UHGV virus genome: UHGV-0069511
From: a virus
Length of the DNA: 31,514 bases
Reading direction: 5' to 3' (one strand)
Below, piece by piece: positions 9,904 through 11,712 of this stretch (position 1 is its first letter; each line of letters opens with the position of its first letter). A program made the translations under genes and the position numbers. The notes beneath the pieces were generated by a model. It searched no databases. It saw nothing but the letters and a program-made list of their open reading frames with translations, and was not told where the DNA came from.

Positions 9904-10623
9904 ATGAAAAAAAGCAATGGACTCACATTAAAACTTGACGGAACCACCCCTGGCCAGCTGTCAATGGCTAAGTTGGTCAAGTATATGTCTGCTCTCGTAG
10001 ATCTATACGGTTCTGCAGATTCTGTTCACTTCGACTGTGTAAGTGAAGGATCGGCTGACTTAAATGCATGGGTCGATAATGATATTTGTTATAACGCTGT
10101 CATAGCAAGGGCCTCTCTCTCAGCCAAAGAGAAATCACCCGCGTATCAAAAAATTGTTAATTTACTGGAACATGATGGTTTTTCAGCGAAACTACTCGGA
10201 CGAAACCACTCAACCATTATCGCATTCCCGCGAGTAAAAAAGGAGCCAATCCCTTTACTCATAACAAAAACATCAGAAGTTCAAGGAAGGCTATACAGTG
10301 TTGGCGGAAAAGACAATTCAATACCTGTGCGTATTGAGGGAGCCAACGGCGAAACATTCAAGTGCGAGGCAACCCCTGATTTGGCGGCAGCTCTTGGGTC
10401 CCATCTATTCAAATATATTAGGGTTAAAGGAGATGGGTGCTGGGAAAAAAAGAACAACAAATGGGAGCTAAAGAAACTAAAAATAACTTCATTTGTATTG
10501 CTCAAAAAATCATCACTCAAGGATGCTATTAATGCTATCAAGCAAGTTCCTGGAGATCAGTGGTCCGAGGAACGCGATGTTGATTCAATCCTTAGGACTC
10601 TGAGGAAGATAAATTGCGAGTAA
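9904..10623 (+). CDS. Hypothetical protein, first gene of the PIN-nuclease moron cluster
   Basis: 239 aa, ATG start, AT-rich; 3' end overlaps the next gene by 10 nt. No recognisable motif. Confidence 0.55.
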   Translation: MKKSNGLTLKLDGTTPGQLSMAKLVKYMSALVDLYGSADSVHFDCVSEGSADLNAWVDNDICYNAVIARASLSAKEKSPAYQKIVNLLEHDGFSAKLLGRNHSTIIAFPRVKKEPIPLLITKTSEVQGRLYSVGGKDNSIPVRIEGANGETFKCEATPDLAAALGSHLFKYIRVKGDGCWEKKNNKWELKKLKITSFVLLKKSSLKDAINAIKQVPGDQWSEERDVDSILRTLRKINCE

Positions 10624-11162
10624 TTTTAGATACCAATATTCTGGTATACCTACTATCAGATATAGAACACGATTATAGATTATCTGACCCTATACTTGGT
10701 TCTGAGATTCCAGATGCCAAAAGAAGAGCAGAAGCTCTTGTTGATCGAATAGATAACAAGAACGGGACAATCATCGTTCCAACTCCTGTATTGGCGGAGT
10801 TTTTAGTTGGAATCCATAAAGATTACCAACAAGAAAAACTGAATGTTATCAAATCGTTATCGTGCTTCGAAACTGTATCGTTTGATGAGTTGGCTGCTAT
10901 TGAATGCGCATCGATACCAACATTAAAAGAATTAAGGAAAATTAGCACAGAAGGTACAGCAAACAAAATTAAGTTTGACAGACAAATAATAGCAATTGCA
11001 AGAGCAATTAATGCTGACGAGGTATGGACTCATGATAAGGGAGTGTTTGAGCGTTGCAAAAGTCTCAATATTCCTGTGTTCACATTATCATCAATAGAAC
11101 CAATTCCGGTTCAAAGTCTCATGGAGTTCTTACACGATTCAGACGATCAGAGATTACACTAA
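10614..11162 (+). CDS. PIN-domain (VapC-like) nuclease
   Basis: TTG start at 10614 with GAGGA SD upstream. 'ILDTNILVYLL' (first acidic residue), Glu in 'PVLAEFLVG', and 'FDRQIIAIARAINADEVWTHD' reproduce the spacing of conserved PIN acidic residues. At 182 aa it is longer than typical VapC. Confidence 0.7.
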   Translation: MRVILDTNILVYLLSDIEHDYRLSDPILGSEIPDAKRRAEALVDRIDNKNGTIIVPTPVLAEFLVGIHKDYQQEKLNVIKSLSCFETVSFDELAAIECASIPTLKELRKISTEGTANKIKFDRQIIAIARAINADEVWTHDKGVFERCKSLNIPVFTLSSIEPIPVQSLMEFLHDSDDQRLH

Positions 11163-11178
11163 AATATAATTTTTATGC

Positions 11179-11206
11179 ATCCGTGATAATTACATCCGTC
11201 ACGGAT
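11179..11206. repeat. Inverted repeat between the PIN gene and the next gene
   Basis: 'ATCCGTGA' ... 'TCACGGAT' with 12-nt spacer; no U-tract, so possibly an operator rather than a terminator. Confidence 0.3.
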
Positions 11207-11289
11207 ACATAAAGCTATAGCCAAAAGTGGACAAACCTTTATCTCACTCCAAACCATCTGGTATCCTGCGCAAAACTAAGGAGGTTGGT

Positions 11290-11712
11290 GTGTTTGGTAT
11301 ATTAACGAGAAGCAAGATAAAAAAATTAAGGGCAGAACTCGCCGAAACACAAAAACTGGCTTCACATTTTTACAAAATGAAATACGACGCTGAAGAGCGT
11401 GCATTTGTTGAGTTATGCGATTTATCTATTCGTATGGGAGTAGAGCCAGATGTAGCGGCAAAAACCCAACAAGGCATTGATATACTTGCAGATGTTGTTT
11501 TAAACAGGCAATATGCGTTTTATCTAAACGAGAAGGCCATTCAGATTTACTCTCAAATCTTCCTCCTAGAAAAAAGAAGAGGAACTCACGATCGAGAAGA
11601 GTGGTTAAATGAAGTTGTTAAAAAATCTGGCTGGGAAGTTGTTTCATCAGAGCTACCTCTTATTTGTGCTGATTTAATCGAAGAGGCAAAAGAGCGCCTA
11701 TCCGATGGCTAA
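11290..11712 (+). CDS. Hypothetical protein, third gene of the moron cluster
   Basis: ORF-track frame starts with GTG at 11227; an in-frame GTG at 11290 sits 5 nt after a strong SD 'AAGGAGG' (11278-11284), so this start is preferred. No recognisable motif; not hydrophobic. Confidence 0.5.
   Translation: MFGILTRSKIKKLRAELAETQKLASHFYKMKYDAEERAFVELCDLSIRMGVEPDVAAKTQQGIDILADVVLNRQYAFYLNEKAIQIYSQIFLLEKRRGTHDREEWLNEVVKKSGWEVVSSELPLICADLIEEAKERLSDG

What the first reader, a model, noticed from the sequence alone, without database searches (positions are those of the whole stretch)
9904..11712. AT-rich three-gene moron cluster with a PIN-domain nuclease at the mnt-gp16 junction
In P22 the interval between mnt and gene 16 carries superinfection-exclusion genes such as sieA. 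Here it holds three plus-strand genes of different composition from the surrounding late genes: a 239-aa unknown protein overlapping by 10 nt a 182-aa protein with PIN-domain catalytic residues (LDTN ... E ... D ... THD), then a 140-aa unknown protein with a strong SD. The partner upstream of the PIN gene is far larger than a classical VapB antitoxin and none of the products looks like membrane protein SieA, so this could be a non-canonical toxin-antitoxin or a prophage-encoded anti-phage module.
Basis: partly seen in the sequence, partly recalled or inferred. Interest (0 to 1): 0.75.

Follow-up and report, generated by a model that had tools for sequence, protein, structure and literature searches.

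The report
Prophage PIN nuclease with OB-fold partner
A P22-like prophage carries, just behind its Mnt repressor gene, an uncharacterised two-gene cassette (a VapC-like RNA-cutting enzyme and an unusually large nucleic-acid-binding partner) that sits behind repressor genes in unrelated temperate phages and is most likely a toxin-antitoxin-style anti-phage module; the third gene is a separate, unrelated insert.

Summary
Three plus-strand genes lie at 9904-11712 between mnt and gene 16 of a P22-like prophage. They have 39.5% GC against 48.1% for the late genes.

B or its remnant follows A in all 32 loci examined. In 9 of these, A-B lies directly after a same-strand prophage repressor (Mnt or cI-like) in unrelated phages. 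It is absent from PADLOC and nearly absent from plasmids. B is listed as an untested "predicted novel defense gene" by DefensePredictor.

Gene C is an E. coli-only ORFan in the sieA slot and occurs independently of A-B.

Best reading: a lysogen-expressed, VapBC-like toxin plus non-canonical sensor/antitoxin module that defends by abortive infection. That function is inferred, not shown.

The parts
9544..9577 (.). Overlapping divergent promoter-like sites: Pmnt-like (+, 9544-9572) and Pant-like (-, 9577-9549). They are the probable source of lysogenic transcription into mnt and onward into A-B.
   Evidence: Promoter scan gave 10/12 and 11/12 matches. No terminator-like site was found between mnt and A. 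Assigning the P22 names rests on established knowledge of immI.
9600..9854 (+). mnt (84 aa), the maintenance repressor of immI. It lies immediately upstream of A-B on the same strand, with a 49-nt spacer.
   Evidence: Pfam Arc 5.7e-27 plus Repressor_Mnt 4.8e-13.
9904..10623 (+). Gene A (239 aa, pI 9.15). It has an N-terminal alpha/beta domain (about residues 1-110, no fold match), an OB-fold (about 118-199) and a flexible C-terminal tail (200-239) with conserved W220 and R234. It is the proposed partner (antitoxin or sensor) of the PIN nuclease.
10614..11162 (+). Gene B (182 aa, pI 5.1, TTG start overlapping A by 10 nt). It is a VapC-like PIN-domain ribonuclease, the proposed effector or toxin.
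11171..11214 (+). Stable hairpin directly after the B stop codon, with no U-tract. It is the probable 3' end or stabiliser of the A-B transcript and marks the cassette boundary.
   Evidence: Inverted repeat with 15-nt arms, 93% complementary. RNA fold -17.4 kcal/mol, z=-4.4. Orthologous cassettes have canonical intrinsic terminators at this position.
11259..11292 (+). 34-nt invariant leader, Shine-Dalgarno site and start codon (TGGTATCCTGCGCAAAACTAAGGAGGTTGGTGTG). It is shared by the alternative genes of the gp16-proximal 'sieA slot'.
   Evidence: The sequence is identical in front of gene C, a 109-aa alternative gene and sieA in other E. coli P22-like prophages.
11290..11712 (+). Gene C (140 aa, soluble, no family). 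It is an independent ORFan moron occupying the sieA slot and is not part of the A-B module.
   Evidence: Only three near-identical protein clusters exist in 5.8 billion sequences. No hit in Pfam, PHROG, PADLOC, NCBIfam or PDB. It occurs without A-B in UMNK88. No similarity to SieA and no transmembrane segment.
11737..13860 (-). Gene 16-type DNA transfer (ejection) protein, the right-hand boundary of the cargo slot.
   Evidence: phrog_770 DNA transfer protein, 3.1e-215.

Best explanation
Genes A and B form one bicistronic, translationally coupled module of the VapBC kind, in which the usual small DNA-binding antitoxin is replaced by a 239-aa OB-fold protein. B is an active PIN-family ribonuclease of the VapC type. 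By analogy its likely substrates are tRNA or rRNA loops, or mRNA. A is made in excess: it has an ATG start, while B has a TTG start inside A's 3' end. A is proposed to hold B inactive by laying its flexible C-terminal tail (W220, R234) over B's acidic active site, as VapB and FitA tails do. The module is a moron expressed in the lysogen, here by read-through from Pmnt. On superinfection, or on induction of another phage, the A-B complex is proposed to be disturbed. This could happen because the basic OB-fold of A binds a phage-made nucleic acid or nucleic-acid-binding protein, or because A is depleted. B would then cleave RNA, translation would stop, and the infection would abort, protecting the lysogen population. 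Shown here: the gene structure, the PIN fold and catalytic tetrad, the OB-fold, the strict A-B linkage, and the recurrent placement behind repressors. Inferred: the A-B contact, B toxicity, the trigger, and the defence phenotype. Gene C is a separate cassette of unknown function.
For: (1) Strict linkage. B or its remnant directly follows A (overlap or a gap of at most 3 nt) in all 32 loci examined, from Escherichia to Marinobacter, Halomonas and an uncultured bacterium, even where B is only 31-39% identical. In E. coli the pair is always complete: 33 of 5,426 genomes.
(2) B has the PIN fold with an invariant D-E-D-D tetrad, and its best structural matches are VapC toxins.
(3) A has a nucleic-acid-type OB-fold and is basic. 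Its low-confidence C-terminal tail keeps W220 and R234 across 137 members at 23-44% identity. That is the pattern expected of a partner-binding tail.
(4) A-B lies immediately downstream of, and on the same strand as, a prophage repressor in 9 of 32 loci. At least six different repressor types are involved: Mnt here, a 128-aa HTH_3 protein in Enterobacter, and S24 cI-like proteins in Providencia, Pantoea, Halomonas, Pseudomonas and the isolated phage Ostro. This is the position rexAB holds in lambda.
(5) Other neighbours are an Mrr-type restriction enzyme, a DUF3037 protein and a Fic protein with IS elements. The same P22 slot holds SieA, a Panacea-domain TA and a YafO TA in sister prophages.
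(6) DefensePredictor lists the E. coli B protein as a predicted novel defence gene, mean log-odds 6.81 against a stringent cut-off of 4 (PMC13092281).
(7) The TTG start of B is conserved in enterics and Pseudomonas, and terminators follow B.
(8) Where the module decays, B is the gene lost while A stays intact (L027, L034). Intact B with broken A was never seen.
(9) A homologues are almost absent from plasmids, 7 of 72,556 records, unlike classical addiction modules.
Against: The partner fails the defining features of VapB: it is not small and has no AbrB, RHH, Phd or HTH domain. A could therefore be an activator or targeting subunit rather than an inhibitor, as reported for the accessory protein of the PIN system DS-5. 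B falls far below the NCBIfam VapC equivalog cut-offs: 27.1 bits against 140 for NF047863, 19.9 against 73.6 for TIGR00028. There is no hit to any PADLOC model. The DefensePredictor call is a prediction; that study reports 45% validation overall. The decay asymmetry rests on two loci, with chance probability about 0.2. Some copies sit in non-mobile contexts, for example between ftsI and murE. Co-transcription with mnt is inferred only from the lack of a predicted terminator.
Confidence: 0.5

Rival explanations
1. A-B is a plain addiction (post-segregational killing) toxin-antitoxin pair. It stabilises the prophage or genomic islet that carries it and has no role against other phages.
For: The operon has VapBC-like architecture with overlapping genes and a weak start codon for the nuclease. 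VapC toxins are the best structural matches. The decay pattern fits a toxin that needs its partner. A defective ST131 prophage, interrupted by an IS element, has kept the module intact.
Against: The family is almost absent from plasmids, where addiction modules thrive (7 of 72,556 records, four of them multi-megabase replicons). The partner lacks the DNA-binding autoregulatory domain of addiction antitoxins. Repeated capture directly behind lysogeny repressors and next to restriction and defence genes points to a phage-directed role. DefensePredictor scores it as defensive.
Confidence: 0.2
2. A is not an inhibitor but the substrate-recognition or activating subunit of a two-protein nuclease. 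Its OB-fold would bring a specific RNA, tRNA or phage ssDNA to the PIN active site, so the complex attacks invading nucleic acid directly. B alone would then be inactive rather than toxic.
For: The OB-fold resembles the ssDNA binders SSB, RPA32, Stn1 and PriB, and the anticodon-binding domains of LysRS, AspRS and AsnRS. PIN domains are naturally paired with OB-like RNA-binding modules in other proteins (PIN-TRAM, Rrp44), which is established knowledge. In DS-5 the non-PIN partner is required for defence and its deletion is not toxic (PMC13092281).
Against: B's TTG start and its coupling to A suggest A is made in excess, as an antitoxin would be. The conserved flexible tail with an invariant arginine resembles toxin-plugging tails. 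B is lost while A survives in decayed copies. DS-5 proteins are not homologous to A or B.
Confidence: 0.17
3. The three genes serve the phage's own cycle, for example RNA processing in the immI region, DNA ejection or host takeover. They would then be ordinary P22-like accessory genes.
For: They lie between immI and the ejection-protein genes. PHROGs contains families for A and B.
Against: Only 33 of 5,426 E. coli genomes carry A-B, although P22-like prophages with the same flanks are far more common and hold other cargo in this slot. No close match exists in 50,697 phage genomes except two Pseudomonas phages at 33% identity. The module also occurs outside prophages. Its GC content differs from that of the phage core.
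Confidence: 0.05

Closest known systems
VapBC type II toxin-antitoxin systems (e.g. Shigella VapBC, Neisseria FitAB, Rickettsia VapBC2)
   Different: The partner is 239 aa rather than about 70-90 aa. It has no AbrB, RHH, Phd or HTH DNA-binding domain; instead it has a domain with no fold match plus an OB-fold. B carries an insertion (residues about 12-34) and a C-terminal extension, and scores far below the NCBIfam VapC equivalog cut-offs. The family is rare on plasmids.
DS-5 of DeWeirdt, Mahoney and Laub 2026 (PMC13092281): a PIN nuclease plus an accessory protein, validated as anti-phage defence
   Same: It is a two-gene E. coli system whose effector is a PIN ribonuclease with an N-terminal VxLDTNIL motif. 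Its partner is not a classical antitoxin.
   Different: There is no homology beyond the 8-residue PIN motif. The DS-5 nuclease is 376 aa and its partner is 166 aa (DUF5830 / AcrIF4-like). Here the nuclease is 182 aa and the partner is a 239-aa OB-fold protein. DS-5 has been tested; this module has only been predicted.
Lambda rexAB and other repressor-operon morons (position analogue)
   Same: It is a two-gene cassette placed directly downstream of, and co-oriented with, the lysogeny-maintenance repressor. It would therefore be expressed in the lysogen and is expected to exclude other phages.
   Different: There is no sequence or domain relationship. RexAB is a sensor plus a membrane ion channel; here there is a soluble RNase and an OB-fold protein.
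Sensor-antitoxin defence modules such as CapRel(SJ46) (concept analogue, recalled from the literature)
   Same: The proposed logic is the same: the neutralising moiety doubles as the phage sensor, and its engagement releases a translation-targeting toxin.
   Different: CapRel is a single fused polypeptide with a tRNA-pyrophosphokinase toxin that senses capsid protein. Here there are two proteins and a PIN RNase, the candidate sensor is an OB-fold, and no trigger is known.
P22 SieA (occupant of the same slot in P22)
   Same: Gene C occupies the gp16-proximal position and uses the identical 34-nt leader, Shine-Dalgarno site and GTG start found in front of sieA in another E. coli prophage.
   Different: There is no sequence similarity. 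SieA is a membrane protein, whereas C is soluble, acidic and an ORFan.

Membership tests
PIN-domain nucleases (Pfam PF01850) | Match to the family model above the curated gathering score | tested here: met
   40.8 bits against a cut-off of 23.6, E=4.1e-10.
PIN-domain nucleases (Pfam PF01850) | Four conserved acidic active-site residues on a Rossmann-like alpha/beta/alpha fold | tested here: met
VapBC type II toxin-antitoxin | The toxin belongs to the VapC subfamily by curated sequence models | tested here: not met
   NCBIfam NF047863 27.1 bits against cut-off 140; TIGR00028 19.9 against 73.6; NF047959 14.8 against 80. Structurally, however, VapC toxins are the nearest neighbours.
VapBC type II toxin-antitoxin | A small upstream antitoxin with an N-terminal DNA-binding domain (AbrB, RHH, Phd/YefM or HTH) | tested here: not met
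   The partner is 239 aa with no Pfam, NCBIfam or PDB-sequence hit. Fold searches find only an OB-fold.
VapBC type II toxin-antitoxin | The antitoxin's C-terminal tail occupies the toxin active site | tested here: inconclusive
   The tail has low pLDDT yet keeps W220 and R234 across the family.
VapBC type II toxin-antitoxin | The toxin arrests growth and the cognate antitoxin neutralises it | not testable with these tools
   This needs expression experiments. The only indirect hint is that B is inactivated while A is intact in L027 and L034, and never the reverse.
Known anti-phage defence systems (PADLOC-DB v2.0.0) | HMM match of any component to a catalogued system | tested here: not met
   No families matched A, B or C at E<=0.1. 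Table S10 of PMC13092281 also lists no HHblits or Foldseek hit to known defence proteins for B.
DS-5 (PIN + DUF5830/AcrIF4-like partner) | Homology of both components | tested here: not met
   BLASTP of B against DS-5B aligned only 8 residues (E=0.16). A against DS-5A gave nothing (E=0.35). Pfam found no DUF5830 in A.
SieA superinfection exclusion | Sequence similarity to SieA and membrane-spanning segments | tested here: not met
   Gene C against SieA from the same slot gave E=14. The maximum 19-residue hydropathy is 0.75 for C against 2.58 for SieA. A and B are also soluble.
Type III (RNA antitoxin, ToxIN-like) systems | A tandem-repeat RNA antitoxin locus next to the nuclease | tested here: not met
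   No tandem repeats in 9500-11800. No Rfam family lies inside the cluster.
Prophage moron / lysogeny-expressed cargo | Variable presence at a fixed slot among related prophages, atypical composition, and own or read-through expression signals | tested here: met
   The slot holds different cargo in sister prophages. The cluster has 39.5% GC against 48.1%. A hairpin or terminators follow B. Expression itself was not tested.

The most novel reading that the evidence does not exclude
A-B is the founding example of a large family of phage-defence systems that has not been experimentally characterised (at least 1,500 clusters at 50% identity). In it, an OB-fold 'sensor-antitoxin' detects a phage replication or recombination intermediate (ssDNA, an RNA, or an SSB-like protein) and releases a VapC-like RNase. 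Temperate phages of many lineages have repeatedly wired this module into their repressor operons to protect their lysogens.
Probability: 0.3. Interest if true: 0.75.

Novelty: new variant of a known kind. Interest (0 to 1): 0.55.

Why it matters
If the model holds, it adds a new architecture to the PIN/VapC world: a nuclease controlled by a nucleic-acid-binding OB-fold protein instead of a transcription-factor-like antitoxin. It would also give a function to a protein family of more than 1,500 clusters that has no Pfam entry. Its recurrent placement behind Mnt and cI-type repressors makes it a clean, testable case of how prophages arm their hosts, comparable to rexAB. It occurs in clinically relevant E. 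coli lineages, including ST131 genomes. The OB-fold offers a concrete hypothesis for what is sensed. It is also a ready test case for a machine-learning defence prediction that has not been validated experimentally.

Tried and rejected
(1) One three-gene operon: rejected, because C and A-B occur independently.
(2) Membership of a catalogued defence system: no PADLOC hits.
(3) Identity with the validated PIN system DS-5: rejected by direct comparison.
(4) Solved-structure relatives by sequence: none for B or C, and only noise for A.
(7) Near-identical DNA in 50,697 phage genomes: only the mnt and gp16 flanks match. A protein search found two Pseudomonas phages.
(8) RNA antitoxin or other RNA family in the cluster: none.
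(9) A link between the prophage's tRNA-Thr/tRNA-Asn genes and the tRNase-like B: rejected, because the tRNA pair is present in about 1,000 E. coli genomes against 33 for A-B.
(10) Brenes and Laub 2025 (E. coli prophage defence systems) could not be read. A prior experimental validation there cannot be excluded.
(11) Searches for the RefSeq accessions in paper texts found nothing.
(12) The palindrome ATATCGATAT in the mnt-A spacer is not conserved upstream of orthologous cassettes, so it was not pursued as an operator.
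Full report
**1. What is in the sequence**

The window carries a P22-like prophage, and the immI region is unmistakable:
- ant at 8146-9069 (-), with P22_AR_N and P22_AR_C domains.
- sar antisense RNA at 9071-9137 (RF00262, 77.7 bits).
- arc at 9351-9572 (-).
- Overlapping divergent Pant- and Pmnt-like promoters at 9544-9577.
- mnt at 9600-9854 (+), with Arc and Repressor_Mnt domains.
- On the far side, the gene 16-type DNA-transfer protein at 11737-13860 (-), followed by the other ejection and head genes.

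- A: 9904-10623, 239 aa.
- B: 10614-11162, 182 aa, with a TTG start overlapping A by 10 nt.
- C: 11290-11712, 140 aa, starting at a GTG behind an AAGGAGG site.

The cluster has 39.5% GC against 48.1% for the late genes.

**2. B is a VapC-type PIN nuclease**

- B passes the Pfam PIN gathering score, 40.8 bits against 23.6.
- In alignments of 31 and 39 homologues, down to 29% identity, D6, E62, D122 (in a KFDRQI motif) and D141 are invariant. This is the canonical PIN acidic tetrad, so the enzyme is under selection to stay active.
- B is nevertheless a divergent branch. It has an insertion after strand 1 and a roughly 30-residue C-terminal extension. It scores far below the NCBIfam VapC equivalog cut-offs, and no PDB sequence matches it.

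**3. A is not a VapB**

- A has no match in Pfam, NCBIfam, PADLOC or PDB sequences. Its only family is a PHROG of unknown function.
- The AlphaFold2 model, built from 29 homologues (pLDDT 83.5), shows three parts: an N-terminal alpha/beta domain (about 1-110), a five-stranded barrel (about 118-199), and two low-confidence C-terminal helices.
- A is basic (pI 9.15; the OB segment 9.4), whereas B is acidic (pI 5.1).
- A profile search of 1.84 billion cluster representatives found 1,544 family members (784 at E<=1e-10). Nearly all are 230-260 aa long. This is a large, uniform family not assigned to any Pfam, NCBIfam or PADLOC model searched here.
- Across 137 diverse members (23-44% identical to A), the conserved positions lie in the N-domain (P16, L24, Y27, G36, H42, G49-S50), in the OB-fold (G128, G134-G135, R173, G176, W180, W187), and at two positions in the otherwise variable, flexible tail: W220 and R234 (96%).
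- A conserved arginine in a disordered C-terminal tail is what VapB and FitA antitoxins use to plug the acidic pocket of their PIN toxins. That parallel is drawn from my knowledge of the FitAB and VapBC structures and was not tested here.

**4. A and B are one module; C is not part of it**

A-B linkage:
- I examined 32 loci carrying an A homologue: the window, eight contexts reached through protein look-ups, 23 genome loci and phage Ostro.
- B, or a recognisable remnant of it, follows directly in every case, overlapping A or at most 3 nt away.
- This holds even for pairs where B is only 31-39% identical, in Providencia, Marinobacterium and an uncultured bacterium.
- In E. coli, 33 of 5,426 complete genomes carry A-B. 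It is always complete, single-copy, chromosomal and at least 99.1% identical.
- B's TTG start is conserved from enterics to Pseudomonas. Intrinsic terminators follow B in Enterobacter, Providencia and Pseudomonas. In the window a stable hairpin (-17.4 kcal/mol, z=-4.4) takes that place.

Gene C behaves independently:
- It accompanies only 19 of the 33 E. coli A-B copies.
- Strain KE40 has A-B followed by an unrelated 109-aa gene.
- UMNK88 has an identical gene C with no A-B.
- C is an ORFan with only near-identical relatives.
- C begins with a 34-nt leader, Shine-Dalgarno site and GTG that is identical in front of sieA and the 109-aa gene in other P22-like prophages.
- C is therefore an alternative occupant of the sieA slot. 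It shows no similarity to SieA and has no membrane segment.

**5. Where the module lives**

The mnt-gene 16 interval is a cargo hotspot. Sister prophages hold SieA, a Panacea-domain TA pair, a YafO TA pair, a ClpP-like gene and small unknowns there.

More telling is the placement of A-B elsewhere. In 9 of 32 loci it lies immediately downstream of, and co-oriented with, a prophage maintenance repressor:
- Mnt in this window.
- A 128-aa HTH_3 repressor opposite Cro/YdaS-YdaT in an Enterobacter Rac-like prophage.
- S24 cI-like repressors in Providencia, Pantoea, Halomonas and several Pseudomonas prophages.
- The annotated CI-like repressor of the isolated temperate Pseudomonas phage Ostro.

At least six unrelated repressor types are involved, so this reflects repeated capture rather than shared ancestry. 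It is the rexAB position, where a gene is expressed in the lysogen.

Other copies sit beside an Mrr-type restriction enzyme, a DUF3037 protein (a domain recently validated in defence; PMC13092281), and a Fic protein with IS elements. One copy lies between ftsI and murE.

Only 7 of 72,556 plasmid records have an A homologue, and four of those are multi-megabase replicons.

**6. Prior knowledge**

- PADLOC v2.0.0 has no model for A, B or C.
- The E. coli B protein (WP_001263856.1, 99% identical) appears in Table S10 of DeWeirdt, Mahoney and Laub (Science 2026, PMC13092281). There it is a "predicted novel defense gene" with mean log-odds 6.81 (stringent cut-off 4) and no HHblits or Foldseek link to known defence proteins. 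It was not among the systems they tested.
- Their validated PIN system DS-5 is not homologous to A-B. It is instructive, though: its non-PIN partner is required for defence and is not an antitoxin.
- I could not read Brenes and Laub 2025 on E. coli prophage defence systems. Prior validation there cannot be excluded.

**7. Most likely mechanism**

I commit to the following model, with about 0.5 confidence for the whole chain. A-B is a VapBC-like two-component module expressed in the lysogen, here probably by read-through from Pmnt, since no terminator is predicted between mnt and A.
- A is made in excess of B and holds the RNase inactive through its W220/R234 tail.
- Phage infection perturbs the complex. 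Either the basic OB-fold engages a phage nucleic acid or nucleic-acid-binding protein, or A is depleted.
- B then cleaves RNA and aborts the infection.

Shown here:
- the gene architecture;
- the PIN fold and catalytic tetrad;
- the OB-fold;
- the strict linkage of A and B;
- the repeated placement behind repressors;
- the rarity on plasmids.

Inferred:
- the A-B contact;
- B toxicity;
- the trigger;
- the defence phenotype.

A weak additional hint is the decay pattern. In the three decayed copies B is inactivated (L027 by frameshift, L034 by truncation after residue 50, L040 with both genes broken). No locus has an intact B with a broken A. Two informative cases could arise by chance with probability about 0.2.

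**8. Rivals**

- A pure addiction module (0.2). The architecture fits, but the rarity on plasmids, the missing DNA-binding domain and the repressor-linked context argue against it.
- A as a targeting or activating subunit of a direct-acting nuclease (0.17). The OB-fold's likeness to ssDNA binders and tRNA anticodon-binding domains, and the DS-5 precedent, keep this alive. B's weak start codon, the conserved tail arginine and the decay pattern lean the other way.
- A role in the phage's own cycle (0.05). The patchy distribution, the non-phage copies and the atypical composition contradict it.

**9. Verdict**

It is a new variant of a known kind, a PIN/VapC nuclease with a non-canonical OB-fold partner from a large family with no assigned function. 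It is only computationally predicted to be defensive. Interest is moderate to good (0.55). PIN-based TA and defence cargo in prophage hotspots is not surprising in itself. The OB-fold partner, the size of the family and the repeated wiring behind lysogeny repressors make it a well-defined and readily testable candidate.

Noticed in passing
window 1-5512 (minus strand): A separate low-GC (30-38%) integrative island abuts the tailspike end of the prophage. It has an integrase (4265-5512; Arm-DNA-bind_3 plus Phage_integrase), a type II N6-adenine methyltransferase (2815-4023; PADLOC MTase_II 8e-237), a 568-aa ORC/CDC6-like AAA ATPase (1116-2822) and a 373-aa protein with no family (50-1171). It could be an R-M-like or ATPase-based defence candidate.
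   Followed up: partly
window 11259-11292: A 34-nt leader, Shine-Dalgarno site and GTG start (TGGTATCCTGCGCAAAACTAAGGAGGTTGGTGTG) is identical in front of three unrelated genes in different E. coli P22-like prophages: gene C, a 109-aa membrane-anchored protein, and sieA. About 100 genomes match this short stretch. It looks like a fixed expression socket, or recombination joint, for swappable cargo.
   Followed up: partly
window 9071-9137 (+): A full-length sar antisense RNA (RF00262, 77.7 bits against gathering score 43) lies in the ant-proximal intergenic region, confirming a complete P22-type immI.
   Followed up: yes
window 28992-29147 (-): The prophage encodes tRNA-Thr(UGU) and tRNA-Asn(GUU). 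This is tempting to link to a tRNase-like PIN toxin. However, the tRNA pair matches over 1,000 E. coli genomes against 33 for A-B, so there is no specific association.
   Followed up: yes
window 9133-9354 (-): A conserved 73-aa ORF (phrog_11805, function unknown) lies between ant and arc, overlapping the arc stop codon. It is annotated as hypothetical in all sister prophages.
   Followed up: no
L001 (E. coli Ecol_AZ146, NZ_CP018991.1) 9942-12469: In the ST131-type copy the ejection-protein region next to gene 16 is interrupted by an IS3-family ISEc52 element, so the prophage is defective. A, B and C nevertheless remain intact at 99.4% identity.
   Followed up: no
L020 and L023 (Pantoea latae contig NZ_MWUE01000022.1): Two diverged A-B modules (70% and 57% identical to A) lie about 12 kb apart on one contig. 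One of them sits directly behind an S24 cI-like repressor.
   Followed up: partly
L018/L019 3251-4528: In an uncultured bacterium an A-B pair is inserted inside the cell-division/cell-wall gene cluster, between the ftsI-type PBP and murE. This is an odd, non-mobile-looking location for a toxin-like module.
   Followed up: no
L003 and L008, 20 nt upstream of the A start: Pseudomonas copies have GGCTATAAT ending about 8 nt before the A start codon. This suggests the cassette has its own promoter giving a leaderless or near-leaderless mRNA, as for cI from PRM.
   Followed up: no
L025-L028 and L041, downstream of B: Several Pseudomonas A-B loci share a conserved 509-aa ORF on the same strand, 100-550 nt downstream of B. 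It was not characterised and could be an additional linked gene in that lineage.
   Followed up: no
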